Below are positions 3,644-19,984 of a stretch of DNA of 64,000 nt, piece after piece; position 1 is the first letter of the stretch; every line of letters starts with the position of its first letter. The notes under the pieces were generated by a model. That model did not search any database and was not told the origin of the DNA. It saw only the letters and a list, made by a program, of their open reading frames with translations. This DNA comes from Minisyncoccota bacterium (GTDB taxonomy: Bacteria > Patescibacteriota > Minisyncoccia > Phycocordibacterales > CSBR16-193): assembly GCA_040905715.1 (NCBI GenBank), contig JBBDRA010000003.1, forward strand, positions 199,075-263,074, in the 5' to 3' direction. A program made the position numbers and the translations under genes.

Positions 3644-4954
3644 ATGCGACAAAACATAGTACATCCGGGCGCAGATGAATTAAGTTACGAGATACGAGAG
3701 ATTGTTGAAGTAGCAAACCAGCTTCAGGCTGCCGGTCAGACGATCTACTGGGAGAACATAGGTGACCCGGTCGCCAAAGGTGAGAAGATCCCCGACTGGA
3801 TCAAGGAGAAGATCATCGAGGTCATCAAAACAGATGACAGTAGTTTTGGCTATTCTCCCACAAAGGGTGATGTAGGTGCGCGTGAGTACATAGCCCACGA
3901 GCGCAACATCGAAGGGGGGATACAGATCACCGCCGATGATATCCTGTTCTTCAATGGGCTTGGTGACGCTATTTCTAAAATATACGAATACGTTCATCCG
4001 GATGTTCGCGTCATCGGCCCAAACCCGGCCTACCCGACTCATTCCTCTGCTGAGGCAGCCCACGCCGGCTCTCATCATCTGACCTACCGTCTTGATCCCT
4101 ATAACAACTGGTATCCGGATCTGGAGGATCTGCGAAGTAAGGTGGAAAAAGATACGTCTATTGGCGGGATCATCCTGATCAATCCGGACAACCCGACGGG
4201 TATGGTGTATTCACAAGAAGTGATCGCCGGACTAGTGGATATTGCCCGTGAATTCAACTTGTTCATTATCTCCGATGAGATCTACTCGAACATTTTTTAT
4301 GGAGGTGTTGAGCATAAGAAATTAGCACAAGTGATCGGTGACGTGCCGGCGATCGCAATGCGCGGTATCTCAAAGGAGTTTCCATGGCCTGGTGCGCGGT
4401 GCGGTTGGGTCGAGTTTTATAATCGGGACAAGGATGAAACATTTAATCGGTACTGCCGTTCACTGGTCGACGCCAAGATGCTTGAGGTGTGTTCAACCAC
4501 GTTGCCGCAGAAAATGATCCCAAAGGTAATGGGAGACGAGCGGTATTATCCATATTTGGCTGAGCGTAATAAACAGTATGAAAAGAGAGCGCAGCAACTG
4601 TATGACGCGCTGGCAGATATCGAAGGTCTGGTGGTGAACAAAGCCAACGGCGCATTTTATATGACAGTAATGTTCAAGAAAGGGGTACTCACCGGCACTG
4701 AGATGATCCCGATCGAAAATGAGGATGCGAGGGGGATCGTTGCACCATATCTCAAAAATGGTCACGAGGCGGACAAACGCTTTGTTTATAACCTACTCGC
4801 TTCGACCGGTATTTGTGTCGTGCCGCTTTCGACCGGGTTCAATTCAGACCTCTTTGGTTTCCGGATCACGCTCCTCGAACGAGATGATGATACATTCGAG
4901 TATATAGTGGGTACCTTAAAAGACGCTATAGAGAAATATATTCAGAAAGCTTGA
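3644..4954 (+). CDS. class I/II PLP-dependent aminotransferase (alanine/aspartate aminotransferase-like)
   Basis: NPDNPTG motif, SKEF..PG.R motif, length 436 aa. Confidence 0.85.
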   Translation: MRQNIVHPGADELSYEIREIVEVANQLQAAGQTIYWENIGDPVAKGEKIPDWIKEKIIEVIKTDDSSFGYSPTKGDVGAREYIAHERNIEGGIQITADDILFFNGLGDAISKIYEYVHPDVRVIGPNPAYPTHSSAEAAHAGSHHLTYRLDPYNNWYPDLEDLRSKVEKDTSIGGIILINPDNPTGMVYSQEVIAGLVDIAREFNLFIISDEIYSNIFYGGVEHKKLAQVIGDVPAIAMRGISKEFPWPGARCGWVEFYNRDKDETFNRYCRSLVDAKMLEVCSTTLPQKMIPKVMGDERYYPYLAERNKQYEKRAQQLYDALADIEGLVVNKANGAFYMTVMFKKGVLTGTEMIPIENEDARGIVAPYLKNGHEADKRFVYNLLASTGICVVPLSTGFNSDLFGFRITLLERDDDTFEYIVGTLKDAIEKYIQKA

Positions 4955-5049: not shown

Positions 5050-5208
5050 ATGTCACAAGATAACCTAATAAAACTCCAGTGTGGAGACTGCAAACAGATC
5101 AACTATTGGTCTCGTAAGAATAAGAAGCTTGATCAGAACAAGATCACGCTTCAGAAGCACTGCAAGTGGTGCCGAAAGCACGCGGAGCACAAAGAGATGA
5201 AGAAATAG
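5050..5208 (+). CDS. rpmG: 50S ribosomal protein L33
   Basis: 52-aa ORF MSQDNLIKLQCGDCKQINY...CKWCRKHAEHKE with two CxxC pairs typical of L33; absent from the ORF track because it is under 60 aa. Confidence 0.85.
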   Translation: MSQDNLIKLQCGDCKQINYWSRKNKKLDQNKITLQKHCKWCRKHAEHKEMKK

Positions 5209-5280: not shown

Positions 5281-6948
5281 TTAGGGGCGTAGCTCACCTG
5301 GTAGAGCGTCGGTCTCCAAAACCGAAGGTAGCAGGTTCAAGTCCTGTCGCCCCTGCAATTTAGGATTTTTAGCGTAGATTTCACTCAAATCCCTTTTATC
5401 CTCGCCGTATTTAGGTGGTTCTAACCTATCGTGAATAGCGTCCACTGCTTTCTTCATTGATTTCATAGGAAATAGCAGATTATCCCAATCAATTCGCAGT
5501 ATTTTGTCTTTAAGGATTAGGTTCGAACCTAATGTAGCGAATATTTCTTTTTTCGTTTCCAAATTGTTACTTTCTCTAGCTTCGGCAAAGAGGGAAGACG
5601 CCTTTTCAGCAAAACTAAATCCACGTTCTGCTATCTCAAGCCAGTTATCTACACGCTTGTCTGTGCCCTTGAGAAGTTCTTGATATTTATCCTTCTCTTC
5701 AAGTAGTTTTTGTTTTCGCTCACGAAACTCTTCCTCACTAAGTTCATCATTGGCACGCATATCAATCAGGTTATCTAACCTGCGTACGCATGATTCATAT
5801 CCTCGCCTCTGTGAGCTGTAAATGAGTTCTCGGTCATCTACCTCCTTTGAGTTCATTTCCTTGAGCCGTGCCAGTGCCCAGTCTTTGAAATCAGTGGGTA
5901 TTTCTACAGATTCCAATTCTTTTGCTATTTGCTTTTCAAGCTCCTTTTCTTCAATCGGGGACTGACTGCAATTTGGGTCCTTTCGTTTCGTGCAGTGATA
6001 ATAGGTGTAATAGTGTGAGTTGCCATTCTTTTGGTGCTTCACTTTCTCCTCAGCTGTAATCATGGCTCCACACTCACCACATTTTAGAGGACCACGGTAG
6101 GCAATAGTATGTCGTTTTGGTCGTGTTGTATTTTCTCTGCCTAGCATTTGCTGTACTCGCTCATACTCTTCTCGAGTCACCAGAGGCTCATGTTTCCCCT
6201 TATAGGTATTACCGTCGTGCTCAATAACTCCCATATAGAAAGGATTAGTAAGTATCCTGTAGGCAGTACTTCTAGCGACTGGTTTGTTGCCACCTCGCTT
6301 TGTTTTACGAGTTCGCAGACCCCATTCATTATTTGCTATATCTAAAATCTGAGTCGGACGATAATTGCCTGTTAGCATTAAATCCCAAATCTTACGGATA
6401 AGGTTGAACCGCTCTGGGTCCTTGATGATGGTTTTTTCAGATTTGTCATTTAGGTAACCAATTGGCGGTAGGCTAGTAGCCCATCCTCTTTTTAGTCTAC
6501 CTAAGTTGCCTCGTTTTACATTTTTACTTAAATCAAGAACGAATTGGTTTGCTACTCCACTTTCCACATTAAATAGCAGTACATTATCTCCAGGGAGGTA
6601 TTCTCTGTCTACTGTTTGTATGCTCTGGAGTACGTTGCTTTGCAAGAGCCAGCTTAATCTACCACTGTCTACTGGATTGCGAGAGAGGCGGTTGATTTGC
6701 CAGCAAAGTATGCCGTCCGCTTCACCGTCCTCAACTCGTTGCAACATCTCCTCAAAAACAGGGCGATTGTTTGGAGTTTTTGCTGATTTCGATTCCGTAA
6801 GGTGTTCAATAATTTCAATGTTGAGATTATGAGCAAGTTCCGTGAGGCGGTTTGTTTGGTCCTCTATAGATTGTATCTGTCGGTCCTCACTCTCAGAGGA
6901 TTTCCGAGCATATAAAAAGTATCGTTTTTTGTTCGTATCTTTGCTCAT
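5281..6948 (-). CDS. large serine recombinase (resolvase N-terminal domain, recombinase domain, Zn-ribbon)
   Basis: N-terminal YFLYARKSSESEDRQ catalytic-serine motif; C-terminal CxxC..C zinc ribbon; coiled-coil; ATG at 6948 preferred (the listed 6984 start is TTG); the last 24 codons run antisense across tRNA-Trp. Confidence 0.9.
   Translation of the reverse strand: MSKDTNKKRYFLYARKSSESEDRQIQSIEDQTNRLTELAHNLNIEIIEHLTESKSAKTPNNRPVFEEMLQRVEDGEADGILCWQINRLSRNPVDSGRLSWLLQSNVLQSIQTVDREYLPGDNVLLFNVESGVANQFVLDLSKNVKRGNLGRLKRGWATSLPPIGYLNDKSEKTIIKDPERFNLIRKIWDLMLTGNYRPTQILDIANNEWGLRTRKTKRGGNKPVARSTAYRILTNPFYMGVIEHDGNTYKGKHEPLVTREEYERVQQMLGRENTTRPKRHTIAYRGPLKCGECGAMITAEEKVKHQKNGNSHYYTYYHCTKRKDPNCSQSPIEEKELEKQIAKELESVEIPTDFKDWALARLKEMNSKEVDDRELIYSSQRRGYESCVRRLDNLIDMRANDELSEEEFRERKQKLLEEKDKYQELLKGTDKRVDNWLEIAERGFSFAEKASSLFAEARESNNLETKKEIFATLGSNLILKDKILRIDWDNLLFPMKSMKKAVDAIHDRLEPPKYGEDKRDLSEIYAKNPKLQGRQDLNLLPSVLETDALPGELRP
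5283..5355 (+). tRNA. tRNA-Trp (anticodon CCA)
   Basis: AGGGGCG acceptor; anticodon loop CTCCAAA; T-arm GCAGG-TTCAAGT-CCTGT; close to the canonical bacterial tRNA-Trp. Confidence 0.9.
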
Positions 6949-6985
6949 ATAAAAACCCGAAAGGGACGGTCTGTGTTGAACCAAC

Positions 6986-7100
6986 TACACGTGGCAATCA
7001 CAGGGATAGACACGATAGCGGAGCAGACCGCCCCTCTCGGGCTACTATAGTATCTATCCCCGTGCATACACCTACGCATAGTTGGTTCAACAATTACATT
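6986..7100. promoter_or_regulatory. long imperfect palindrome between the recombinase start and the upstream gene
   Basis: tgttgaaccaacta ... tagttggttcaaca is a 14-bp perfect inverted repeat about 68 nt apart, with inner partial IRs (gggatagaca / tatctatcccc). Confidence 0.4.
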
Positions 7101-7103
7101 ATA

Positions 7104-8369
7104 TCATCTTTTCTCAAGTGAGGACCGAGTAATAAGCTCAAATCTATCAAGTGCTTCGTCCACAAAAGCAATGCCATTGGAGTAGGGTAAGTTCTTGGTT
7201 AGTTCTGATGCTTCACGTATCTTCTTTGTGAGACGTTCAGGATGACTTGGACTCCAGCAGCTGGCTACCAATTTACGGAGTTCTTTTACGCCACGGTCTT
7301 TAATAATACATGTCAGACCATAGGAAATAAAAGCCCGATTCATACTGTGCACCTCTCCTTTTTTTCTTGCTTCCTCAGCTATGTGAAGAAGCAGCTTAAA
7401 GTCGTCCGTGGGACCAATGAGTGCAAGTTGATTTTCTGGTCTTTGTACAAGTGTATGCCATGATTTAAGTAGTATTGTTTTGCTTAAGTTATCAGAAAAC
7501 AAATCCCTGAACGCCACATAGGTTTTTGGTTTTCTGTCCAAAACAGCGTTTATGTCTCGCTGAACCGCCTGCGTCTTTTTTATACGATATTCGAATCGAA
7601 ATACCTCTTGATTCTCGAGTCCGTACTTTTCAACGATACTTCTTTCACCCACAATTTTCCCTTTGTCTTTACGTTTCACTTTGGGTCGCATTGCGTCAGC
7701 TATTTTGTCGTAGAAAACACGTTCAACGGTTCCAGAATAGATATGAAGGACCTGCCCACCATTCTTGTTCTCTTTAGTGGTTATATCCACAGTTTTATTT
7801 ATATCTACTTGTTGTAACTCTGCGAGTATGTCTTGCAATCGTATATCTCGCGGAAGTATTACATTCTTACAGAAGTGGACACCTGACACACGAGCGTTCG
7901 CAATTACATTTGCTTCAACGATTATCCCAACACTTGAGAGTGATTTCTGAAGAACAGTAAGAGCTTCCCCTAGGTTCTTGTCAGACACTTCTTGCAAGCT
8001 GTTACCGTATAGGAGTTTGGGAAGTGAGAACTCTGCTATAAGTACATACAGAACCTCTTTGCGTTCTTTATCAAGCGTCTCCAGAACATCTACTTTTGGT
8101 AGATAGGTGTCTTGTGCTGGGGCTTTTAAAACGAAACGACGAAGGTAGTGTCGGTTTGATTGCTTTTCTGTGTCAGAAAGCTCGGTGTATTCTCTGCGAA
8201 CTATTTCTGGTAGAAACCGTTGTTTGTAACCAATTTTGAACTTGCCTGGTCCGTATATCTTTATGATGACAGTATCCATAGTATTTTTGTTGTTGGCGGT
8301 GTTTTTCAAGGAAACCTCTTTAATCAGGTAGATTCTCTGAGGTATGACAAACACTCTCTTTGGCTTCAT
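7104..8369 (-). CDS. hypothetical protein (island; possible replication/mobilisation function)
   Basis: long ORF with no recognisable motif; start uncertain (ATG at 8369 or 8279; the listed 8387 is TTG). Confidence 0.5.
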   Translation of the reverse strand: MKPKRVFVIPQRIYLIKEVSLKNTANNKNTMDTVIIKIYGPGKFKIGYKQRFLPEIVRREYTELSDTEKQSNRHYLRRFVLKAPAQDTYLPKVDVLETLDKERKEVLYVLIAEFSLPKLLYGNSLQEVSDKNLGEALTVLQKSLSSVGIIVEANVIANARVSGVHFCKNVILPRDIRLQDILAELQQVDINKTVDITTKENKNGGQVLHIYSGTVERVFYDKIADAMRPKVKRKDKGKIVGERSIVEKYGLENQEVFRFEYRIKKTQAVQRDINAVLDRKPKTYVAFRDLFSDNLSKTILLKSWHTLVQRPENQLALIGPTDDFKLLLHIAEEARKKGEVHSMNRAFISYGLTCIIKDRGVKELRKLVASCWSPSHPERLTKKIREASELTKNLPYSNGIAFVDEALDRFELITRSSLEKR

Positions 8370-8502
8370 GCTTAGAAGTAATCTCAATCAAACGGATGAG
8401 ACGTGAGCCTTTATCAAGAGCCTCGGCTTTGCTGATGTCTTTACCGAAATGTTTTCGATAGAGTGCCTGAAACTCGATTATGTGTTCATCCGTTAGTTGC
8501 AT
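8320..8502 (-). CDS. small hypothetical helical protein (possible regulator)
   Basis: 60-aa ORF with ATG start; overlaps the 5' end of the next ORF if that ORF starts at 8369. Confidence 0.35.
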   Translation of the reverse strand: MQLTDEHIIEFQALYRKHFGKDISKAEALDKGSRLIRLIEITSKHEAKESVCHTSENLPD

Positions 8503-8504
8503 GA

Positions 8505-8771
8505 CTAATCAGAGTAGAGCTTGTTTTTAAGAGCTTTCAGGTTGTCAAAGTACGACCGCGCCTTGACTTCTAATTGGTTAGAAAAATACTTATTGGCATG
8601 CTCCTCAATTTCTTTATCTCGTTTGAATACAAAAAGGACCTTACGAGAGTTTGTTTTCTCTAGTCCCTGAAGTTGGTAACCGCTAGACAGTAGTGCTGCC
8701 GAGGCTCCGAGGTCATACGTTGTGAAGACTGATGATGAGTCCTCGCGGAATGAGACTGCTTCTTGGTTCAT
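8505..8771 (-). CDS. small conserved hypothetical protein of the island
   Basis: 88-aa ORF with ATG start; resembles small proteins often linked to recombinases (DUF5659-like, low confidence). Confidence 0.45.
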   Translation of the reverse strand: MNQEAVSFREDSSSVFTTYDLGASAALLSSGYQLQGLEKTNSRKVLFVFKRDKEIEEHANKYFSNQLEVKARSYFDNLKALKNKLYSD

Positions 8772-8879
8772 GGTAATGATTTCTAAACTCCGAGTAATGC
8801 GGGTTTCTCTAAAGAAAAACCCAGTGCCTATAGTGGCAAACTGGGTTACTCAGATATGAAATCTACGCGAAATCTACGG

Positions 8880-10154
8880 TCAGGACCTCTTTTGTTTTCT
8901 ACGCCATTCTATTGCTAAACGCCTATTACGCTCCCTTTTACATTCGTCACTTTTACATATCTTTTGAGGTTTACCACCTCGTCTTAATGTTGGTGGGTAT
9001 TCATTGCCGCAAATCTCACATCTTGAGATTTCAAGAGGAACAGAGTGCATTGAAAGCATAGGGACTATCGCAGGTGAGGTGATTTTCTTTCCAGTAAGGC
9101 ATTCATAGTAAAAAGCTAAATATTGCACGAGTTCTAGATACCAGTTAGACAATCTGACCGCATTAGCGACTCCGTGTTTTACACCCAGCTTTTTCATTCG
9201 TACTGAATCTTTCTGAGAGATTTTTAAAATAGCGGGGGATTCGTGGGCTTTTATAAGAAGAGGATTCAAAAGGAAAGCCTGATGCAACAATGTTTCTATC
9301 CAATGAGGAATGTGCTCCTCTGTAACATTCGGGTTTTGCTTTTTAATCAAGTCAGCATAATGCTTACCTGTAATGGCTGAATAGTGACTCATAAAATCAT
9401 TCATGAGCTTGCTTCTTATTGGACCATTTCCACGACTTTTCCATATTGTTCTTGCTGCATCTTCAAAAAAACAATCCTGTAAATCTCTAATGTCGAGAAG
9501 TAGAGTTGCTACTTCATCCCAGTGTTTGCTCCCTTGCATTATCGTTTCCTTGTTAAGGTCGAGAAGCTCCTGCCAAGTTGTAAGTATTGCGTTAGAGTTT
9601 TGCTTAGGGTACTCAAGCGTCTTTTCCTTCCATCTTTCTATCTGGACGAGCGAATGTAACTGGTATGTAGCATAGTAGCTGTCACCTTTGTGCTTTGCGA
9701 GGGGCGTTATTAAGTTATTTTCTTCATACCAGCGTAAGTGTTTTTCGGGGATAATGAATCCCCTATGTCTATACAAGCCCCTAAGAGTATCCACGGTATG
9801 TAAGCGTTCAACGACTATTGTGGAGCTTCTGTGTTCGACTCTTTTTTTAAGAGATGTTGGGGTGTAAACAATTCTCTTCTGAATCTCCTTTGCCTCTTTC
9901 TCATTTTTTGTTGGTCTATAGGTTCGTATATTTTCACTAAGAATACCCCACATTTTTAGCCCCAGTTCCCTAGAAGTAGCAGCTTTAACCTCTTCTAGTC
10001 GTGCTGCATGTTCAAGTGATAACTTGTCCAACGTGTCTTTGTTTATAGTGAAATACGGACAATGCGTCTTTGACCTTTTGAAAGAGTTTTCTTGCTCTTT
10101 TACCCACTTATTATAAGAAGCGATAATCGCTCTTTTGGTTCTTTTTTCTGCCAT
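8880..10154 (-). CDS. hypothetical protein with C-terminal zinc ribbon
   Basis: 424 aa; C-terminal CEICGNEY...CKSDEC; basic termini. Confidence 0.6.
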   Translation of the reverse strand: MAEKRTKRAIIASYNKWVKEQENSFKRSKTHCPYFTINKDTLDKLSLEHAARLEEVKAATSRELGLKMWGILSENIRTYRPTKNEKEAKEIQKRIVYTPTSLKKRVEHRSSTIVVERLHTVDTLRGLYRHRGFIIPEKHLRWYEENNLITPLAKHKGDSYYATYQLHSLVQIERWKEKTLEYPKQNSNAILTTWQELLDLNKETIMQGSKHWDEVATLLLDIRDLQDCFFEDAARTIWKSRGNGPIRSKLMNDFMSHYSAITGKHYADLIKKQNPNVTEEHIPHWIETLLHQAFLLNPLLIKAHESPAILKISQKDSVRMKKLGVKHGVANAVRLSNWYLELVQYLAFYYECLTGKKITSPAIVPMLSMHSVPLEISRCEICGNEYPPTLRRGGKPQKICKSDECKRERNRRLAIEWRRKQKRS

Positions 10155-10292
10155 AGTAATTGTAATATGGTTCCCATACTAGCATCTTTATATACTTTCG
10201 AAATCTTGAAGTGTATGGTTTAATAAACCTACACAACTGAATATTGTTACGACCTAACCCTTAGGAATTGCTCTTGAGGCATGGTCCAAAAA

Positions 10293-10338
10293 CGCTACGA
10301 ACATAGAAAACCCGTCATCAGGGCGTTCGTAGCGTTGC
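10293..10338. promoter_or_regulatory. 12-bp inverted repeat in the divergent intergenic region of the island
   Basis: aacgctacgaac ...22 nt... gttcgtagcgtt. Confidence 0.35.
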
Positions 10339-10434
10339 CAGGGGAAACTCTGGTAGAGGTAACCGAAAGGTGCCTTCCTGGTGGCGGGCTTTGTGTATCT
10401 GCCGCCAGGCGTTACTAACTATTACTATTTTCGT

Positions 10435-11112
10435 ATGGAAGAACAAAATAAAAAATGGTATCAGAAGCCAGTTGGCATAATTGCTTTATTGGTCCTATTT
10501 TTTCCTGTAGGACTTTATTTAATGTGGAAGTACGCTGAGTGGGATAGGAATGTAAAGTGGGTTGTTACGGGGGGTGTTTTAGTGGTTATTATGATTGGTA
10601 CTGTCGCAGGTGAAGTAGACGAACAATCAACCTTGTCAGAGGGAGAAAACCAGGAAGAAAATAAATCGGTTGATGAATCTAACCTCACAACAGAAGAAAA
10701 AGTAACGCGGGCGGCTGAGGAAATCGTAGGTAATCACGACAGTGTCGAGGTAATGGTGTCTGAAGGAGATGCGTTTCTTATATTTGAGGAAGAAACTTTT
10801 TATACCATCGAATCGGCTGTTAGAGACACATATGAGTATTTTGTGAAATGGGGAGAGGAAGCACTTGCCTATGATGAAATCGGTTTTGTTTCTGTTGAGG
10901 CAAAAACGCAATTTACTGATGAAAAAGGTAGAACATCTATGGGCACAATTATTCGTGTCCAGATGAATGAAGAAAACTTTAATGAATTTGAGTGGAAGAA
11001 TCTTGATTTTAGACCTATTCACAATCAGATAGACGAGTACGGGACGTTGTTTGTCCATCCACAGGTCTGGAGAGAGGTAGACATGAACGAAGATGCATAC
11101 CTATCTTTGTAA
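10435..11112 (+). CDS. membrane-anchored hypothetical protein
   Basis: ATG at 10435 (the listed 10381 start is GTG); one N-terminal TM segment, acidic linker. Confidence 0.55.
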   Translation: MEEQNKKWYQKPVGIIALLVLFFPVGLYLMWKYAEWDRNVKWVVTGGVLVVIMIGTVAGEVDEQSTLSEGENQEENKSVDESNLTTEEKVTRAAEEIVGNHDSVEVMVSEGDAFLIFEEETFYTIESAVRDTYEYFVKWGEEALAYDEIGFVSVEAKTQFTDEKGRTSMGTIIRVQMNEENFNEFEWKNLDFRPIHNQIDEYGTLFVHPQVWREVDMNEDAYLSL

Positions 11113-11142
11113 AAAAGCAAATAGCTCTAGATATAGCTAGTT

Positions 11143-12324
11143 ATGAAAAATCTACTTAAAAAATATTGGGCACTGCCAAAGATATATCAATTTTGTATCG
11201 CTGCCGTGGTATTCGTGTGCCTTTTCTTGGTTTTACCCAATGTTATTGCGTATATTTTTGCCGCTGCCGTTTCTTACGATTTGATTGATAAGAAGGTTTG
11301 GAAATATAGTGCAGTATCATTTCTTGCAGTTGTTGCTTTTTCTTCGGGCGTTCTGTGGATTGACGGGAAAACAGATTCACAACCAGTTGAAAGTAGTAGT
11401 GTTACTCAATCTGTAGACAGTGCAGAGCATAGCGAATCTAACCAAAAAGCAAAAACTACAAACGAAAGTGCTACTACAAGCCAAAATAATGTAGCGGAAG
11501 TAGAAGCGAGCCAAGGAGAAAGTAGTCAGCAGGATAATGGAGATGAAGCAGAAACTGATATTACGGGTCAAGAAGAAAATAATGAACAGGATGACAAAGA
11601 CGAGGACTCACAAATTGAAACTGAATCCAATCAAGTTAATGAAGGAAATGACGAAATCAGTCAAGATTCTCTAGCTGAAAATGATAGTGTCGATGAACCA
11701 TACGAAGTTGTCGATGTCGTTGATGGGGACACGGTAAAGCTGAGTATTGATGATGAAGTGGAAACTATTCGTCTGATTGGTATCGATACACCCGAGACTG
11801 TGCATCCGTCTGAGCCAGTTGAGTGTTTTGGGAAGGAAGCGTCAAACAAGGCAAAGGAGCTGCTTTCTGGGAAAACAGTTGTGCTAGAGGCGGATGAGTC
11901 ACAAGGGACAAGAGACGCTTACGGTAGATTGCTTGGGTACGTTATTCTGCCTGGCGGCAGGAACTTCAACAAACTGATGATTGAACAAGGGTATGCGTAC
12001 GAATATACGTACTCTACACCGTATAAGTATCAGGACGCATTCAAGACGGCGGAACAAAATGCTCGAACAAGTGAAGTTGGTTTATGGGCTGATGGGGCGT
12101 GTGATGATTGGGAAGAGAAATCCGAACAAGAGGACCAAACGAGCGATAGTACAACGTCAGAAGGTAACTGGTATGTGAGCTCACATCATTCATCGAAGTA
12201 CTACTACTGCGAAGAGAGTGACGGCTGGAAGTCCCTTTCAGAAAGCTACTTAAAGGTCTATGAAAGCGAATCGGCACTGCTTGCTGACTTCCCAAACCAT
12301 ACCTTGCACGAGAGTTGTGAGTAA
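11143..12324 (+). CDS. membrane-anchored thermonuclease (staphylococcal nuclease homolog)
   Basis: motifs DGDTVKL, IRLIGIDTPE, DAYGRLLGYV, EQGYAYEY, GLWA align with S. aureus nuclease A; N-terminal TM; long acidic low-complexity linker. Confidence 0.85.
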   Translation: MKNLLKKYWALPKIYQFCIAAVVFVCLFLVLPNVIAYIFAAAVSYDLIDKKVWKYSAVSFLAVVAFSSGVLWIDGKTDSQPVESSSVTQSVDSAEHSESNQKAKTTNESATTSQNNVAEVEASQGESSQQDNGDEAETDITGQEENNEQDDKDEDSQIETESNQVNEGNDEISQDSLAENDSVDEPYEVVDVVDGDTVKLSIDDEVETIRLIGIDTPETVHPSEPVECFGKEASNKAKELLSGKTVVLEADESQGTRDAYGRLLGYVILPGGRNFNKLMIEQGYAYEYTYSTPYKYQDAFKTAEQNARTSEVGLWADGACDDWEEKSEQEDQTSDSTTSEGNWYVSSHHSSKYYYCEESDGWKSLSESYLKVYESESALLADFPNHTLHESCE

Positions 12325-12367
12325 CATTACCTATTGACAACATCTCACATTGTATTATTTTATCACT

Positions 12368-13060
12368 ATGAAAAGATTTTTAATTCTTACATCTCTCTGC
12401 GTAGCTTTCGTGTTCTCGGCGGTAGTACCTAACGTCGTTTCAGCAGATGTGTGGGTAGATGGGTACTATCGGAGTAACGGCACCTATGTTAATGGACATT
12501 ACCGAAGTAGCCCAGACGGTAACCCTTACAACAACTGGAGTTATCCTGGTAACACCAACCCATATACAGGAGAAACTGCTGACGGAAACGCGAATACTTA
12601 TTTAGATAACTACTACGACAATAGTAGTGGTTATGATAGTTACAACTGGAGTTACGATTCGTATGACTATGATTATGATAGTTATGACTCATATGATTAT
12701 GACTACGACAGCTATGACTCGTATGATTACAGTGATTCTTCGTATGACACTTACGACTACAGTTCTACCTACGACTCAACACCTAACTGCCCAATAAACT
12801 CCTATTACAGCAGTATTGATGATGCGTGCACGTGCTATTCTGGTTACGCTGCGCAAAATGGTTCTTGCGTGAGAGCAAGTTCAATTTGCAAAGACGAGTA
12901 TGGTTATAACGCTCGATACAACTCTTTAAGTAACTCGTGTGAATGTAGATATGGTTATATTTTCAGTGGGGGTGAGTGTGTAAGTAAAGACCAAGCCTGT
13001 GAGGACCAATTTGGATACGGGTATGACTATAATTCACTTAGCGGATATTGCGAGAAATAG
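12368..13060 (+). CDS. secreted protein with D/S/Y tandem repeats and a Cys-rich C-terminal region
   Basis: signal peptide MKRFLILTSLCVAFVFSAVVPNVVSA; (DSYDSYDYDY)n; C-terminal repeated C.C..GY...C modules. Confidence 0.6.
   Translation: MKRFLILTSLCVAFVFSAVVPNVVSADVWVDGYYRSNGTYVNGHYRSSPDGNPYNNWSYPGNTNPYTGETADGNANTYLDNYYDNSSGYDSYNWSYDSYDYDYDSYDSYDYDYDSYDSYDYSDSSYDTYDYSSTYDSTPNCPINSYYSSIDDACTCYSGYAAQNGSCVRASSICKDEYGYNARYNSLSNSCECRYGYIFSGGECVSKDQACEDQFGYGYDYNSLSGYCEK
12650..12780 (+). repeat. ~30-nt coding tandem repeat (about 4 copies)
   Basis: gactc(a/g)tatgattatgactacgacagctat units. Confidence 0.6.
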
Positions 13061-13069
13061 CAATTTACT

Positions 13070-13261
13070 ATGCCTAAAACCAACACTTCTACTGACTGTA
13101 AGTATTGTGGGGCTGAAAATAGCTCAATAAACTCTTTCTGTATTAAATGCGGTAGGAAAATTGAAACAGAAGAACTGACAAAATCTTCAGTTACTGGATG
13201 GTCTCTGGGCATCCTTTTGGGTGGAGTGTTTATAGCGTTATCTATAATACTTTATGGCTAA
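13070..13261 (+). CDS. zinc-ribbon membrane protein (paralog 1)
   Basis: N-terminal CKYCG...CIKCG; C-terminal TM helix. Confidence 0.55.
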   Translation: MPKTNTSTDCKYCGAENSSINSFCIKCGRKIETEELTKSSVTGWSLGILLGGVFIALSIILYG

Positions 13262-13263
13262 AT

Positions 13264-13698
13264 ATGAAAATACTTAAGATTATTACAATTATTGCAAATG
13301 TTCTCGCTCTCTTTGTTTTGTTAGTCTTATTAGACGGTGGAGATTTGAGTGGCGGTGGCTTCCTTTTCTTTCTGATTATTTTTGTACTTAACACTATATT
13401 TGTTATTCGCTTTCGAAAAATGAATACGAATAAAGGATGGATTGGTTTATTTTTGGAGCGGAAAGCGATGGAGGAAAAACGAAAAATAAGAGATTTAGAG
13501 GGAGGGTCCGAAAAGCAGGATGATACAGTTAAAGAAAAGCGGGAAGACGAGAAAAGGGAACAAGATTCTGAGCAGGTAGAGCAAGTAGACAGTTCACAGA
13601 GTACTGCGGGCGATGTAAAGTACTGTGGTCAATGTGGGGCTAAATCGGATATTGATGATATGTACTGTGAGCAGTGCGGAACTAAACACGAGATATAA
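13264..13698 (+). CDS. membrane protein with C-terminal zinc ribbon (paralog 2)
   Basis: ATG at 13264; 2 TM segments; CGQCG...CEQCG at the C-terminus. Confidence 0.55.
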   Translation: MKILKIITIIANVLALFVLLVLLDGGDLSGGGFLFFLIIFVLNTIFVIRFRKMNTNKGWIGLFLERKAMEEKRKIRDLEGGSEKQDDTVKEKREDEKREQDSEQVEQVDSSQSTAGDVKYCGQCGAKSDIDDMYCEQCGTKHEI

Positions 13699-13706
13699 AC
13701 ATTACT

Positions 13707-14402
13707 ATGAAATGCAGAGAGTGCGAAAAAGAGGTAAAAGATAGTGCAGTTTTTTGCTCTGATTGCGGATGCAAATTAAGTGGTCCTAAAGAATATAATT
13801 CTCCAGTAAATATCAATTACTATGCAAGTGACTGGAGGCAAACGAATACGTTATCAGTAGCTACTTTGGCTTATGTCGACCTTCTAGTGAAAGAAGATGG
13901 GTTATACATCATACAACTTCCTCGTTATCGTAGCGGTGTAATACTTGCATCCTTAGTCGGTTTATTAATCGCTAATTTTTTTGGTTTTTTGATTGGTTCG
14001 ACAATAGCTCACTCAGTGAATAAAGGTAAGCGTAGAGAGTTAAGGAAGAAATGGTTAAATAAAAATAATCAATTGGCTACCGATAGTTTTAAGGAGTACG
14101 TACTTTTACATATTCCACAATCAAACCTTGATGCTTCTCTTAAACTCAGGAGACGCAAGGTGGTCATTGAGTACGGTGGAAATAAGGTAGTTGCAAAGAA
14201 AAACAAAAAAGAAGTCAACAACTTACAGCGTGCTATAAATGGAGAAAAAGTTCCAATGCCGATTAGAGATGAGCAGCAGGCACAGGAAATACAAGAAGAT
14301 GAAGCAACGAAGAAAAAACAAGCAATTATTGTTTTATCAATTGTTGTAGGATTGTTTGCTTTTTTGTTGGGAGGTATCTTATTAGTAACTCTACTTATTT
14401 AA
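13707..14402 (+). CDS. zinc-ribbon membrane protein (paralog 3)
   Basis: N-terminal CRECEK...CSDCG; TM segments. Confidence 0.6.
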   Translation: MKCRECEKEVKDSAVFCSDCGCKLSGPKEYNSPVNINYYASDWRQTNTLSVATLAYVDLLVKEDGLYIIQLPRYRSGVILASLVGLLIANFFGFLIGSTIAHSVNKGKRRELRKKWLNKNNQLATDSFKEYVLLHIPQSNLDASLKLRRRKVVIEYGGNKVVAKKNKKEVNNLQRAINGEKVPMPIRDEQQAQEIQEDEATKKKQAIIVLSIVVGLFAFLLGGILLVTLLI

Positions 14403-14409
14403 CTAATAT

Positions 14410-15117
14410 ATGAATTGTTCGAACTGTAACAAGGAAATAAAAGAGGGTGCTAACTTCTGCTCTGCTTGTGGTACCGAGGCGGTTAATAATCCTGGTGGTG
14501 CAGTGAAAGTGCTAGGAGAAACAGATGAAAGGTCTCAGCTTGAAAGAAGTAAATATAATAAAGCTCGACTGCTTTGGATTCTTGTTCCGATTGCCTCTAT
14601 GTTCGTCTTAGCTATTCTTTGGGGTATTGTCTCATTTCTTGAGGAGGTTGCTCCGTCTTTAAGAGTTCTAGTGGAATTATTTAATGTTTTTGTTCCAATC
14701 TTTTTTGCTCTTGCTCTGATATTTATTCCAATTGGAATTGTAGTGGCTATTAGAATCACGAACAAAATAAAGAGATTGGGTGTTGAATATGACTCACGCT
14801 CTGGTAAAGGCGATGCGTCTATTGTTCCTGATGAAGTTAAGAAAGGTCTAAACTGGGGTCCAGGACTTGGTATTATATGGGGAGCTTACTTCAACATATG
14901 GAGCTCTCTTCTTGTGCTTATTCCATTAGTTAATCTAATCTGGTTTATCGTTGCTTTGGTTGAAGGAAACGAATGGATGTGGAGGAATAATAAATGGGTT
15001 TCCGTAGAGGAGTTTCAGGATTCACGTAGAAGATGGAATATAGCTGGTGCTACAGTACTGATAATCTCTCTTTCTCCATATCTGCTAGTCATACTGATAG
15101 CCTTAGCATCTGCTTAA
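14410..15117 (+). CDS. zinc-ribbon multi-pass membrane protein (paralog 4)
   Basis: N-terminal CSNCNK...CSACG; at least 5 TM segments. Confidence 0.6.
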   Translation: MNCSNCNKEIKEGANFCSACGTEAVNNPGGAVKVLGETDERSQLERSKYNKARLLWILVPIASMFVLAILWGIVSFLEEVAPSLRVLVELFNVFVPIFFALALIFIPIGIVVAIRITNKIKRLGVEYDSRSGKGDASIVPDEVKKGLNWGPGLGIIWGAYFNIWSSLLVLIPLVNLIWFIVALVEGNEWMWRNNKWVSVEEFQDSRRRWNIAGATVLIISLSPYLLVILIALASA

Positions 15118-15128
15118 TACGTTACCCT

Positions 15129-15296
15129 ATGAAACAGCACACAAAGTATTTTTTATTGTCTGGAACACTGGTCTTTATAGTTATCCAAGCAATAGGTAAC
15201 TATTCAACCTATAGTTTTTTATTGGCAGGTCTATGGCTTGGCTTTTGGGTTGGTGTTGATGTGAAAAATAGATACGAGAACTTCTTAAGTGAGTAA
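15129..15296 (+). CDS. small membrane protein
   Basis: 55-aa hydrophobic ORF starting ATG 15129. Confidence 0.4.
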   Translation: MKQHTKYFLLSGTLVFIVIQAIGNYSTYSFLLAGLWLGFWVGVDVKNRYENFLSE

Positions 15297-15313
15297 TAAA
15301 ATAACTTTTTTAT

Positions 15314-15493
15314 ATGCTAAATGGTTGGGCGATAATAATTGCAGTTGTTGCGGGTTTGTTTGCAGGAGCGATTACTAATGCCTTGCTTCAATTCATATTT
15401 GATTCTAACGAGGATTACTCTGGTAGTGCTTTTTTAGTAGGATGGCTTGTTTTGATGTCGATACTCTTTTTTTGGCGTATTATGTTTCACTAA
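15314..15493 (+). CDS. small membrane protein
   Basis: 59-aa hydrophobic ORF not in the track. Confidence 0.35.
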   Translation: MLNGWAIIIAVVAGLFAGAITNALLQFIFDSNEDYSGSAFLVGWLVLMSILFFWRIMFH

Positions 15494-15612
15494 GTGGCAA
15501 AAAATCTTTTAGGAGTCTTCAACCATCTCATGTGATTCAACCGAGAGCAGAAAACAATGATGAAAGGAGTGGCGGGGTATATAGTATTTTTGTTTTGATG
15601 GTTTGAGCAAAC

Positions 15613-16578
15613 ATGACGGAAAAGAATAGCATAACTAAAAGACAGCACTACGTCCCTCAGTTTTACCTGAAGAGGTTTGTAAACCCTGATGGTAAGCTAA
15701 ACATTCTTGATTGTGAAAGACGTAAAGTCGTTGCTTCAAGAGCACCCAGAAGTGTCTGTAAAGAGGATTACTTCTATGCTCTTAATGGTGAATTGGATGA
15801 AGTCAGCCAGTCTTTGGAGGAAGGGCTTCAGAAGATAGAAACTGATATTGCGAATGGTTATGACGATGTAGCAAAAAGGGTCTCTGATTTCAAAGAGATA
15901 ACGCACGATGATAAAATGCTCGTCGCGACTTTTATGTCCTTGCAGTACTTACGTGGACTTTATATGAGAAAGCAAACGAAAAGAATGGACGAGGACTTTA
16001 TCAAGAAAATCACTAGGCTACGGTATGGCTCTGGCAATATACATACATCGCTTGATAGGCTTGAAAATGAAACTGGAGAAAAACTATCAGAGAAAGAAAG
16101 GGAAGAGTTAATCGAGTTCGCTAAAAGCGGTGATTATAGAGTTGAAACAAATAACGCGTCCCACTTGCAGCTATTATCTCAGATTGAGGGTTTCAGAAAT
16201 CTGTTTTACGGGAAAAGATGGACTGTTTATGTTTCAAAATCCAGTAAGAAGTTCGTTACGTCTGATAATCCTGTGGCTGAAATGTTTCCAGAATGGACCG
16301 GTAGGTTTTTCTACGGACCATCTTTTTTTCAAAGAACTCACTATTTTGCAATGACTCCAGACATACTAATTGTTGCAGGTGATGTTTTGCGTGGTGAGAA
16401 AAGAGTAAAACGAAAAACACTTTTTGATAGCAGGGAGGGAAACGCTAAAATCCTCACGCTGAACTTCACTGTCTCTAGACACGCCATTGCTTATGCGTAT
16501 GCTAACGATAAGACCTTATTACAGGATATCGTGGACGGTGTTAATCTGTACGATAGGCAGCAAAGTAAAAAAGCATAA
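15613..16578 (+). CDS. DUF4238-family protein (candidate anti-phage defense protein)
   Basis: N-terminal HYVPQFYLKRF motif characteristic of DUF4238; 321 aa. Confidence 0.7.
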   Translation: MTEKNSITKRQHYVPQFYLKRFVNPDGKLNILDCERRKVVASRAPRSVCKEDYFYALNGELDEVSQSLEEGLQKIETDIANGYDDVAKRVSDFKEITHDDKMLVATFMSLQYLRGLYMRKQTKRMDEDFIKKITRLRYGSGNIHTSLDRLENETGEKLSEKEREELIEFAKSGDYRVETNNASHLQLLSQIEGFRNLFYGKRWTVYVSKSSKKFVTSDNPVAEMFPEWTGRFFYGPSFFQRTHYFAMTPDILIVAGDVLRGEKRVKRKTLFDSREGNAKILTLNFTVSRHAIAYAYANDKTLLQDIVDGVNLYDRQQSKKA

Positions 16579-16581
16579 AAT

Positions 16582-17079
16582 ATGTCACCAATAGTTCAAA
16601 TTGAGATTACTGCATCTGCTGTAGCTTGGTATGCAGCAATAGTCGCAACTCTGGTAGGAATTGCTCAGATTGTGGCTGTATGGAGGGACAGAAAGCATGT
16701 CAAAATAAAAATAGAGAAAGGAATAAGGATTATGGGTCCCGATGGTCCTGGTCCGTATGAAGAGAATACAGACTACGTTGCTATTCGTATTATTAATGCA
16801 GGGCGTAGAGAAGTTAGCATTCTCACCGCAGGTGCTAGTTTGTTAAAAGGGGGACAGCTTATCCCTACCGATATACTGAAGGCGGGAACGGTAACTCTAG
16901 GTGAAGGAAAACGATACGATGCTTTTGTAAAACAAGAGCAGTTAGATTTTTCTCAAATTGCTTATTTTTACGTAACAGATGCCACGGATTCAACTTATAA
17001 GAAACCAATCGCGAATCCCTTTAGACGTTTATATTGGTTTGTTAGAAGAAATGTTCAGATTTTTACAGGTTGTTTGTAG
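16582..17079 (+). CDS. small membrane-anchored protein, translationally coupled to the DUF4238 gene
   Basis: start 4 nt after the upstream stop; N-terminal TM (AWYAAIVATLVGIAQIVAVW). Confidence 0.55.
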   Translation: MSPIVQIEITASAVAWYAAIVATLVGIAQIVAVWRDRKHVKIKIEKGIRIMGPDGPGPYEENTDYVAIRIINAGRREVSILTAGASLLKGGQLIPTDILKAGTVTLGEGKRYDAFVKQEQLDFSQIAYFYVTDATDSTYKKPIANPFRRLYWFVRRNVQIFTGCL

Positions 17080-17186
17080 AAAAACTCACTCTCTCCTTCA
17101 AGCAAACAGGTTCTAACGTCGTCCATAAGTCCCTGCATCGTGAAATTAAAACCCCGACGAGGGGTTTTAATTTTGCGAAATTCAGA

Positions 17187-17205
17187 GGCGGCGACAGGAC
17201 TTGAA
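17187..17205 (-). repeat. inverted partial copy of the tRNA-Trp T-arm/acceptor region
   Basis: reverse complement ttcaagtcctgtcgccgcc matches the tRNA-Trp 3' region over 16 nt; lies 112 nt left of the right-hand 22-bp direct repeat. Confidence 0.5.
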
Positions 17206-17316
17206 AGACGGAGGCGGTACACAAGACGACCGTAGGGAGTGCTTGTCGCCGAGTCCGGGGAGAAAGCACTTAGTGAATGAAGACCGAAGGGATGAGTGAG
17301 CTTAGTGACTTGACCC

Positions 17317-17338
17317 CAAGTCCTGTCGCCCCTGCAAT
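17317..17338 (+). repeat. right-hand copy of the 22-bp direct repeat (attR-like)
   Basis: identical to 5338-5359. Confidence 0.7.
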
Positions 17339-17414
17339 AGTTGACAAGAAACATACATATGTTATTTCTATATATAGAAGACATATAGCTAGCCGGCCAG
17401 CTAGTATCGTCTTC

Positions 17415-17450
17415 AGGCCAGGTCCTACGGGATCCTGGCCTTTTTATTTT
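17415..17450 (+). terminator. rho-independent terminator
   Basis: aggccagg tcc...gga tcctggcct plus a T-run. Confidence 0.6.
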
Positions 17451-17487
17451 TCCACAACACAGAGTTTGACCTCTGATTAGACCGCTC

Positions 17488-19776: not shown

Positions 19777-19779
19777 CTG

Positions 19780-19861
19780 TGCCGGAGGTGGGACTTGAAC
19801 CCACATCCCTTGCGAGACACGATTTTGAGTCGTGCGCGTATACCAATTCCGCCACTCCGGC
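19780..19861 (-). tRNA. tRNA-Leu (anticodon CAA), class II
   Basis: minus-strand GCCGGAG...CTCCGGC acceptor; anticodon loop CTCAAAA; long variable arm; T-arm GTGGG-TTCAAGT-CCCAC. Confidence 0.88.
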
Positions 19862-19984
19862 AATCATCGTCAGCGTACTATAAAACAAGGGGTATTTCAA
19901 TTTACATGTGGTTCTGTGGACTGGGTTCGTGTGTTATACTGCAGCTATATCTAATTTCTAAAGCCTAGGACCTAACGCTAAACT

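What the first reader, a model, noticed from the sequence alone, without database searches (positions are those of the whole stretch)
5283..17338. A 12-kb integrative island at tRNA-Trp with a large serine recombinase and membrane/secreted cargo
A perfect 22-bp direct repeat (caagtcctgtcgcccctgcaat) is present at the 3' end of tRNA-Trp (5338-5359) and again at 17317-17338. Immediately inside the left repeat lies a 555-aa large serine recombinase, followed by hypothetical minus-strand genes. A plus-strand block then encodes a membrane-anchored staphylococcal-nuclease homolog, a D/S/Y-repeat Cys-rich secreted protein, four paralogous zinc-ribbon membrane proteins, and a DUF4238 plus membrane-protein pair. 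In other bacteria, tRNA-Trp is conventionally followed by secE-nusG. Here that position is occupied by the island, which supports an insertion.
Basis: partly seen in the sequence, partly recalled or inferred. Interest (0 to 1): 0.65.

Follow-up and report, generated by a model that had tools for sequence, protein, structure and literature searches.

The report
Serine-integrase island inserted in tRNA-Trp
A 12-kb mobile element sits in the tRNA-Trp gene of a tiny-genome Paceibacterota (CPR) bacterium; its large serine integrase belongs to a big, poorly described clade whose genes end inside tRNA genes, a target this integrase class was thought to use rarely.

Summary
A perfect 22-bp direct repeat, made of the last 18 nt of tRNA-Trp plus 4 nt, bounds an 11,979-bp unit (5338-17338). 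The unit has 40.4% GC against 48.2% outside. At its left end is an intact 555-aa large serine recombinase (LSR).

New points:
- The LSR reading frame crosses attL and runs antisense through the whole tRNA. Its last 18 residues are host-encoded; an excised circle would give 541 aa.
- This is a clade trait. 74 of the 120 closest homologues end in T-loop-antisense peptides, and eight to nine of thirteen related loci checked show a tRNA, or a tRNA 3' part, at the LSR 3' end (Trp, Asn, Gln; some with group I introns).
- The element shares a backbone with elements that have other cargo and other flanks: DUF5659, then a ~393-aa protein weakly like rolling-circle initiators, then the LSR.
- A LOOT RNA (Rfam RF03000) heads the cargo block.

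The cargo is membrane and secreted proteins, a nuclease and a DUF4238 pair. There are no capsid or conjugation genes.

No empty site was found, and the secE-nusG argument fails. "Four paralogous zinc-ribbon proteins" is overstated.

Verdict: a real integrative element, and a new variant of a known kind.

The parts
5283..5355 (+). Host tRNA-Trp(CCA); its last 18 nt form part of the attL core
   Evidence: ARAGORN; Rfam tRNA 67 bits; preceded by rpmG at 5050-5208
5338..5359 (.). attL core, left copy of the 22-bp direct repeat
   Evidence: Exact match, 2 copies, 0 expected
5281..6948 (-). Large serine recombinase, 555 aa. Residues 530-537 are encoded by the core and 538-555 by antisense host tRNA. 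The stop TAA is at 5281-5283.
   Evidence: Pfam and PHROG hits; catalytic R15-K16-S17 invariant in alignment A1; ORF geometry
7104..8279 (-). 391-aa conserved backbone protein, candidate rolling-circle replication initiator (distant G2P/Phage_CRI-like)
   Evidence: 254 homologues at 53-72% identity. 3 of 45 members hit PF05144, best E 8.7e-6. AF2 pLDDT 90.6. BFVD viral matches at E 3e-7, TM 0.55, unnamed. No PDB match. Adjacent to an LSR in L237 and L238.
8320..8502 (-). 60-aa protein; a gene of 60-63 aa follows DUF5659 in L237, L088 and L239 as well
   Evidence: Sequence similarity is not significant; only position and size are conserved.
8505..8771 (-). DUF5659 protein (88 aa), conserved partner of this LSR clade; candidate regulator or directionality factor (inference)
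   Evidence: Pfam 4e-11. 56% and 37% identical to the DUF5659 genes of L087 and L088. Also present in L237, L238 and L239. Fold search uninformative.
8880..10154 (-). 424-aa near-orphan protein with a weak MerR-like stretch (137-231) and a C-terminal Cys cluster
   Evidence: No Pfam hit; TIGR02044 E 0.019; 27 representatives among 1.84 billion proteins; unrelated to the proteins at the same position in relatives
10251..10376 (+). LOOT RNA (RF03000) heading the cargo block, in the divergent intergenic region
   Evidence: 75.6 bits against a gathering score of 46.4. Same position in L088 (83.8 bits) and L238 (72 bits). An extra conserved box lies 3' of it.
10435..11112 (+). 225-aa protein with two TM segments
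11143..12324 (+). Membrane-anchored staphylococcal-type nuclease with an acidic/Ser-rich linker
   Evidence: Pfam SNase 1e-27; NucI 5e-34; PADLOC SNc+LTD 8e-49; TM segment 17-35
12368..13060 (+). Secreted D/S/Y-repeat protein with 11 Cys
   Evidence: Translation; signal-like segment 6-24; phrog_29674 2e-10
13264..15117 (+). Three zinc-ribbon membrane proteins (144, 231 and 235 aa)
   Evidence: Zn_Ribbon_1 hits, weak to 5e-7; TM segments; only 23 aa shared between two of them
15129..15493 (+). Two small proteins (55 and 59 aa), the second with two TM segments
15613..17079 (+). DUF4238 protein (321 aa) plus a 165-aa TM protein; candidate defence pair
   Evidence: Pfam 7e-36; PADLOC DUF4238-Pers 5e-9
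17317..17338 (.). attR core, right copy of the repeat (element-borne copy of the tRNA 3' end)
17416..17451 (+). Hairpin plus T-run; probable native terminator of tRNA-Trp, displaced 12 kb by the insertion
   Evidence: Fold of 17339-17460 has z = -5.7, against z = -0.08 for the stretch after attL; sequence

Best explanation
An 11,979-bp integrative element sits in the 3' part of the tRNA-Trp gene of a Candidatus Paceibacterota genome.

Shown:
- The element is bounded by a 22-bp repeat that duplicates the tRNA 3' end, so the tRNA stays intact.
- A complete large serine recombinase gene lies at the tRNA-proximal edge, convergent with the tRNA.
- The LSR ORF crosses the att core and reads antisense through the tRNA.

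Inferred:
- A circular form carrying attP, whose core is embedded in the last codons of the LSR gene, recombined with attB in the tRNA. The crossover lies somewhere in the 22-bp core.
- Integration swaps the LSR tail from ...QDLGSSH (541 aa) to ...QDLNLLPSVLETDALPGELRP (555 aa).
- Integration also places the LSR gene opposite the tRNA promoter with no terminator between them. This could damp integrase expression in the integrated state.
- Excision would need a directionality factor. DUF5659 or the 60-aa protein are the candidates.
- The 391-aa G2P-like protein may replicate the excised circle by a rolling-circle mechanism.

The cargo is led by a LOOT RNA. It encodes envelope and secreted proteins, a membrane-anchored nuclease and a DUF4238/TM pair. 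The element has no capsid, packaging or conjugation genes, so transfer must rely on other routes.
For: - Repeat and tRNA. LSR domains and invariant catalytic residues. ORF geometry.
- GC 0.404 against 0.482, with no overlap of 2-kb windows. Displaced terminator.
- The integrated state is 100% identical in independent assemblies across both junctions.
- Clade trait: 74 of 120 homologues end in T-loop-antisense tripeptides, against 0.085 expected per 35 aa.
- tRNA, or a tRNA 3' exon followed by a group I intron, lies at the LSR 3' end in L089 (Asn), L215 (Trp), L239 (Gln), L237, L088 and L216.
- Shared backbone with different cargo and flanks in L087, L088, L237, L238 and L239.
- Rep-like evidence. 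LOOT.
Against: - No empty attB and no attP junction was found. All assemblies of this species that cover a junction show the occupied state, so current mobility is unproven.
- A 22-bp identity is long for a serine integrase. No clear dyad marks a crossover.
- Related loci show no distal tRNA-end repeat of 12 nt or more within 10 kb. Their far ends are therefore undefined, and their crossover may lie elsewhere.
- The Rep assignment is weak: 3 of 45 members, the query itself gets no hit, and there is no PDB or phage-database match.
- Nothing is known about a directionality factor.
Confidence: 0.85

Rival explanations
1. A decayed prophage or phage satellite: the remnant of a larger virus, or a helper-dependent satellite, that kept only its integrase, replication gene and some accessory genes.
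For: phrog_95 integrase hit; SNase and DUF4238 match phage families. Distant LSR relatives sit at the ends of IMG/VR viral contigs. The 391-aa model matches viral proteins in BFVD.
Against: No capsid, portal, terminase, tail or lysis hit in Pfam, PHROGs or NCBIfam. No close relative of the LSR, the 391-aa or the 424-aa protein in IMG/VR or of the 391-aa protein in GenBank phages. Related elements of similar size carry restriction-modification or DGR cargo, not virion genes. Perfect repeats and intact ORFs argue against decay.
Confidence: 0.08
2. An inovirus-like (filamentous ssDNA) prophage: a rolling-circle initiator plus a run of small membrane proteins that serve as coat and adsorption proteins.
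For: G2P/Phage_CRI-like signal. Size of 12 kb. A one-strand block of small TM proteins and a secreted repeat protein.
Against: The hallmark Zot/pI-type morphogenesis ATPase is absent; no P-loop ATPase hit anywhere in the island. The TM proteins have no match to coat families. Relatives with the same backbone carry restriction-modification or DGR cargo instead.
Confidence: 0.04
3. Ancestral chromosomal region; the repeat and the recombinase are unrelated to any insertion. The repeat would be a leftover of another event and the LSR a resolvase or invertase.
For: No empty site was seen. The island is fixed and identical in all available assemblies of the species.
Against: A 22-bp exact copy of a tRNA 3' end, 12 kb away, is not expected by chance. 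The compositional break coincides with the repeats. The LSR has the full integrase architecture and abuts the repeat. The same arrangement recurs at other tRNAs in other genomes.
Confidence: 0.03

Closest known systems
Serine-integrase prophages and islands (phiC31, Bxb1, A118, phiFC1, TP901-1; SCCmec Ccr; XisF)
   Same: Same enzyme architecture: resolvase, recombinase and zinc-ribbon domains. Weak hits to XisF and CcrA/B/C. 25-27% identity to phiFC1-type integrases. The integrase gene sits next to att.
   Different: The target is a tRNA gene. Mageeney et al. 2020 (PMC7192596) found tRNA use in only 14 of 297 serine-integrase elements and called it previously unreported. The identity block is 22 bp, and the ORF runs across att into the target. 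The host is a CPR bacterium.
Tyrosine-integrase tRNA islands, including Prochlorococcus tycheposons (Hackl et al., bioRxiv 10.1101/2020.12.28.424599)
   Same: Small cargo-carrying elements in streamlined genomes. They integrate at tRNA 3' ends, leave a partial tRNA copy, have the integrase next to the tRNA, and carry a replication module plus variable cargo.
   Different: Tycheposons use tyrosine recombinases. No Phage_integrase domain is present here. The backbone genes (DUF5659, 391-aa protein, LOOT) are unrelated.
Actinomycete integrative elements such as pSAM2 (own knowledge; review PMC2440964 listed)
   Same: An element of about 11 kb, integrated in a tRNA gene, that replicates by rolling circle after excision.
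   Different: pSAM2 uses a tyrosine integrase with Xis and carries a Tra (FtsK-like) transfer gene. None of these is present here.
Integration-dependent systems of mycobacteriophages, with attP inside a gene so that integration changes the product's C-terminus (own knowledge, Broussard et al. 2013)
   Same: attP lies within the 3' end of a coding gene, so integrated and excised forms encode different C-termini.
   Different: There the affected gene is the repressor, with a tagged tyrosine integrase and a shown regulatory role. Here it is the serine integrase itself, and no function of the swap has been shown.
LOOT RNA motif (Rfam RF03000; Weinberg et al. 2017, PMC5737381)
   Same: Passes the curated threshold with full-length matches.
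   Different: The family has no assigned function, and the text held for PMC5737381 gave no description of the motif. Here it is placed on an integrative-element family, 50-70 nt upstream of the first cargo gene.

Membership tests
Large serine recombinase (serine integrase) | N-terminal resolvase catalytic domain with the serine nucleophile | tested here: met
   PF00239 8e-17; Y13, R15, K16, S17 and Q24 invariant among 35 homologues
Large serine recombinase (serine integrase) | Recombinase domain plus zinc beta-ribbon domain | tested here: met
   PF07508 2e-12 and PF13408 5e-9
Large serine recombinase (serine integrase) | Coiled-coil insertion that controls directionality | tested here: inconclusive
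   Only a sub-threshold SHOCT hit at residues 390-416; no coiled-coil prediction was run
Large serine recombinase (serine integrase) | attP x attB recombination at a 2-nt crossover | not testable with these tools
   Needs an in vitro or in vivo assay; the dyad analysis was uninformative
tRNA-integrated genomic island | Direct repeat that duplicates part of the tRNA, leaving the tRNA intact | tested here: met
tRNA-integrated genomic island | Integrase gene at the tRNA-proximal end | tested here: met
tRNA-integrated genomic island | Composition unlike the host | tested here: met
tRNA-integrated genomic island | Sporadic presence: an empty site in relatives | tested here: inconclusive
   No relatives with a comparable locus were retrieved. 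The genome and metagenome scans were uninformative. All same-species contigs that cover a junction are occupied.
Prophage | Capsid, portal, terminase or tail genes | tested here: not met
   No such hit in Pfam, PHROGs or NCBIfam
ICE / IME | Relaxase, coupling protein or type IV secretion genes | tested here: not met
   No such hit
Inovirus | pI/Zot-like morphogenesis ATPase | tested here: not met
   No ATPase domain in any island protein
Tycheposon | tRNA-specific tyrosine recombinase | tested here: not met
   No Phage_integrase hit; the recombinase is of the serine type
Rolling-circle initiator of the G2P/Phage_CRI family (391-aa protein) | Significant match to PF05144, or a fold match to a known initiator with catalytic Tyr and metal-binding motifs | tested here: inconclusive
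   The query has no hit. 3 of 45 family members match, best E 8.7e-6. BFVD matches at E 3e-7 are unnamed. No PDB match. Motifs were not assigned.
LOOT RNA (RF03000) | Score above Rfam's gathering threshold over the full model | tested here: met
   75.6 bits against 46.4, model positions 1-121
DUF4238 defence candidate | Match to the defence-system model and protection against phage | tested here: inconclusive
   Pfam DUF4238 7e-36, but PADLOC DUF4238-Pers only 5e-9. Phenotype is not testable here.

The most novel reading that the evidence does not exclude
The island represents a large, so far undescribed clade of serine integrases, abundant in CPR/Patescibacteria, that systematically targets tRNA genes. 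The att core is embedded in the last codons of the integrase gene, so integration fuses the integrase to antisense host tRNA. That fusion may act as a switch between the integrated and excised states. These integrases mobilise a modular family of small elements (DUF5659, a rolling-circle-type or primase replication module, and a LOOT RNA leader) that shuttle restriction-modification, DGR, defence and cell-envelope cargo among ultra-small bacteria. On this reading the orphan LOOT RNA is a regulatory or origin element of that mobile-element family.
Probability: 0.4. Interest if true: 0.8.

Novelty: new variant of a known kind. Interest (0 to 1): 0.62.

Why it matters
- Serine integrases are prized genome-engineering tools. 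Their natural targets were thought to be mostly protein genes, and tRNA use was rare and unvalidated (PMC7192596).
- A whole clade with tRNA targets would give many integrase/att pairs with predictable, universally conserved landing sites. The 20-nt tRNA-Trp end used here is shared by very many bacteria.
- It would also revise the view that tRNA targeting is a tyrosine-integrase speciality.
- It gives a first concrete picture of a mobile-element family in Patescibacteria, whose horizontal gene transfer is poorly understood.
- It gives genomic context to two orphan families, DUF5659 and the LOOT RNA.
- The cargo (surface proteins, an external nuclease) fits the epibiotic, nucleotide-scavenging lifestyle of these bacteria. 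That link rests on general knowledge of CPR biology and is an inference.

Tried and rejected
- Empty site, genome scan: the genome-contig scan with the left-flank aminotransferase returned only relatives of 67% identity or less, from many phyla, with no tRNA-Trp nearby. The gene is horizontally mobile, so the scan said nothing about synteny.
- Empty site, metagenome scan: the 20-mer core returned 120+ ordinary tRNA-Trp genes of high-GC soil bacteria. The core is too conserved for this use.
- Empty site, exact-protein look-ups: look-ups of flank genes gave only occupied or truncated contigs.
- Contig breaks: breaks at the tRNA in other assemblies looked like att polymorphism. Sequence shared between species within tRNA-Trp explains them better.
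- IMG/VR: no close relatives of the LSR, the 391-aa or the 424-aa protein. No strict LOOT pattern match.
- Crossover: a dyad-symmetry scan for the crossover found no clear centre.
- Distal repeats: searches for a distal att repeat in related loci found none.
- Promoters and terminators: consensus counts did not differ from shuffles.
- SecE: the 64-aa flank ORF was rejected as SecE. Ten further window ORFs were screened for secE/nusG and none matched.
- 424-aa protein: no homology to the large proteins at the same position in related elements.

Full report
OBSERVATION.
ARAGORN and Rfam place tRNA-Trp(cca) at 5283-5355/6 on the + strand. The 22-mer CAAGTCCTGTCGCCCCTGCAAT occurs exactly twice, at 5338-5359 and 17317-17338. 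No further copy appears even with 3 mismatches, and none in 100 shuffles. It covers the last 4 nt of the T-loop, the 3' T-stem, the 3' acceptor strand, the discriminator and 4 nt beyond. The repeat unit is 11,979 bp.

GC is 0.404 inside the unit against 0.482 in the rest of the window. All 20 two-kb windows inside (0.372-0.423) lie below all 96 outside (0.440-0.593).

HOST AND COPIES.
Flank and island proteins are on record as Candidatus Paceibacterota MAG proteins. The window comes from a 523-kb contig. The integrated state is 100% identical across the left junction in GCA_040881535.1 (L211) and across the right junction in GCA_040879545.1 (L003) and a Logan contig (L005).

Other contigs break inside the tRNA. 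The tRNA-Trp 3' 20-mer is shared by very many unrelated bacteria, so I read these breaks as assembly effects, not att polymorphism.

No empty site and no circular junction was found.

THE RECOMBINASE.
The gene at 5281-6948(-) encodes 555 aa with Resolvase, Recombinase and Zn_ribbon_recom domains. It matches phrog_95 'integrase' at 1e-68 and gives weak XisF/Ccr hits. The R15-K16-S17 catalytic stretch is invariant among 35 homologues. The protein is only 25-27% identical to known phage serine integrases such as phiFC1.

The ORF does not stop before the repeat. Residues 530-537 (LQGRQDL) are encoded by the core. Residues 538-555 (NLLPSVLETDALPGELRP) are encoded by antisense tRNA, and the stop TAA overlaps the first tRNA base. 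Joining the ends into a circle gives ...LQGRQDLGSSH*, 541 aa.

The exact protein is not on record. The NCBI accession numbering leaves no slot for it, so it is probably unannotated because it overlaps the tRNA. This last point is an inference.

A CLADE TRAIT.
More than 5,400 homologues exist. The best are 50-57% identical, and those that carry names come mainly from CPR phyla.

Among the top 120, 74 carry a tripeptide in their last 35 residues that is the antisense translation of the tRNA T-loop (DSN 49, IRT 10, VRT 10, GLE 8, ESN 5). The expectation from the rest of the proteins is 0.085 per 35 aa. Most of the others stop at ...LL(R/P)G...LLRR or ...LLRW. In L089 and L088 these codons lie in the acceptor or T-stem antisense.

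At the DNA level, the LSR 3' end overlaps or abuts the following:
- tRNA-Asn (L089).
- tRNA-Trp (L215, 38% identical LSR).
- tRNA-Gln (L239).
- tRNA 3' exons followed by group I introns (L237, L088, L216).
- tRNA 3' parts: T-arm and acceptor antisense in L213 and L217; L087 shows only a partial T-arm before its contig ends.

Mageeney et al. 2020 found tRNA use by serine integrases in 14 of 297 elements, against 44.5% for tyrosine integrases. They stated that such use had not been reported before and needed experimental proof (PMC7192596). My literature searches found no description of a tRNA-targeting serine-integrase clade in CPR. The library is not exhaustive.

BACKBONE.
Reading away from the LSR, the island has a 391-aa protein, a 60-aa protein, DUF5659 (88 aa) and a 424-aa protein.

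The 391-aa family has 254 detected members, the listed ones 53-72% identical and about 393 aa long. In L237 and L238 it again lies between DUF5659 and an LSR. The query itself has no Pfam hit, but 3 of 45 members match PF05144 (G2P/Phage_CRI N-terminal), best E 8.7e-6. A confident AF2 model (pLDDT 90.6) has no PDB match. It does match four unnamed viral proteins in BFVD (E 3e-7 to 5e-5, TM up to 0.55-0.59). I read it as a probable, unproven rolling-circle initiator.

DUF5659 accompanies the LSR in the window, L087, L088, L237, L238 and L239. Its fold gave no lead.

The 424-aa protein is a near-orphan, with 27 representatives among 1.84 billion proteins. It is unrelated to the large proteins at the same position elsewhere.

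In relatives the replication slot may instead hold a primase zinc ribbon plus AAA_25 (L088), a Toprim protein (L241) or a tyrosine recombinase (L087). Their cargo is restriction-modification systems, a DGR or others. The family is therefore modular.

LOOT RNA.
Rfam finds a full-length LOOT RNA (RF03000) at 10251-10376(+), at 75.6 bits against a gathering score of 46.4. It lies in the divergent region between the 424-aa gene and the cargo block. LOOT occurs at the same backbone/cargo boundary, 50-70 nt upstream of the first cargo gene, in L088 and L238. It is absent from L237 and L087.

The three copies also share a box, CTGGyGGsGrGmTTTGTG, just 3' of the model. The function is unknown. The position suggests a leader or regulator of cargo expression; an origin role is not excluded.

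CARGO.
Eight of the 10 plus-strand products have TM-like or signal-like segments. The cargo includes:
- A membrane-anchored SNase (Pfam 1e-27; PADLOC SNc+LTD 8e-49).
- A secreted D/S/Y-repeat protein with 11 Cys.
- Three zinc-ribbon membrane proteins. They are not four and are not paralogous beyond a 23-aa ribbon.
- A DUF4238 protein with a TM partner (Pfam 7e-36; PADLOC 5e-9).
These rest.

No virion, packaging, lysis, relaxase or secretion genes were detected.

INSERTION EVIDENCE BEYOND THE REPEAT.
The 122 nt right of attR fold strongly (z = -5.7). They contain a GC-rich hairpin followed by TTTTTATTTTT at 17416-17451. The stretch right of attL does not fold beyond chance (z = -0.08). In a reconstructed empty site this terminator would follow tRNA-Trp by 78 nt. 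In the occupied site the tRNA transcript has no terminator before it runs antisense into the LSR gene.

The secE-nusG argument fails. rpmG-tRNA-Trp is present, but the right flank holds a 97-aa ORF, a 64-aa TM ORF that is not SecE, DUF4870 and miaA. None of ten further ORFs tested is SecE or NusG.

MECHANISM.
Shown: the repeat, the intact tRNA, the intact LSR at the edge, and the ORF/att/tRNA overlap.

Inferred:
- LSR-catalysed attP x attB recombination within the 22-bp core. The left edge of the identity lies in the middle of the T-loop, but no dyad identifies the crossover.
- A tail swap on integration.
- Possible antisense damping of LSR expression by tRNA transcription.
- Excision aided by an unknown directionality factor; DUF5659 is the candidate.
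- Rolling-circle replication of the circle by the 391-aa protein.
- Transfer by means not encoded on the element.

CAVEATS.
- Related loci show no distal tRNA-end repeat of 12 nt or more within 10 kb. Their far ends, and hence their crossover positions, are unknown.
- Activity of this copy is unproven.

VERDICT.
As a single island it is a new member of a familiar class. Three things make it a new variant of a known kind, of moderate to high interest: the tRNA-targeting serine-integrase clade with att embedded in the gene's end, the new modular backbone, and the LOOT association.

Noticed in passing
window 10251-10376 (+); L088 5375-5501 (-); L238 6694-6818 (-): A LOOT RNA (RF03000), an orphan structured RNA, sits at the backbone/cargo boundary of three related integrative elements. 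A further conserved box, CTGGyGGsGrGmTTTGTG, lies just 3' of the Rfam model.
   Followed up: partly
L237 12838-13161 (-); L088 11630-11920 (-); L216 7621-7862 (-): Group I introns interrupt the tRNA genes that abut the LSR genes in related loci. ARAGORN therefore misses these tRNAs. This fits the recent report of group I introns in Patescibacteria tRNA genes (PMC13011429, listed).
   Followed up: partly
window 5281-6948 (-): The intact LSR seems to have no protein accession in the NCBI record: the numbering goes MEX2563879, one slot, then MEX2563881. It is also not on record as an exact protein. It is probably skipped or marked pseudo because it overlaps the tRNA.
   Followed up: partly
window 17283-17290 vs 5320-5327: The octamer ACCGAAGG (tRNA anticodon-stem/variable region) also occurs 26 nt left of the attR core. 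This is either a degenerate longer tRNA copy in attP or chance (about 1-2%).
   Followed up: no
L151 (Ga0136601_1000026), three core copies spaced 135 bp apart: An unrelated metagenome contig has a tRNA-Trp followed by two partial copies of the same 20-mer at 135-bp spacing. This suggests serial integration scars at tRNA-Trp in another organism.
   Followed up: no
L241 / L242 (P0064 loci): The same LSR element and 3 kb of downstream sequence occur in two contigs that diverge about 3 kb beyond the LSR (near locus position 14,500). This may be a nested or tandem mobile region. The protein occurs on at least 24 contigs.
   Followed up: no
window 3644-4954 (+): The left-flank aminotransferase has its best relatives (62-67% identity) scattered over Ignavibacteria, Spirochaetia, FCPU426 and several CPR groups. 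This suggests horizontal transfer of the gene.
   Followed up: no
window 18880-19863 (-) and 19779-19861 (-): The longest miaA ORF (TTG start) overlaps tRNA-Leu(caa) on the same strand. The real miaA start is probably downstream of the tRNA; other assemblies aa.
   Followed up: no
window 47076-51347 (+): A 1,423-aa protein with many bacterial Ig-like domains; a probable large surface protein of this CPR bacterium.
   Followed up: no
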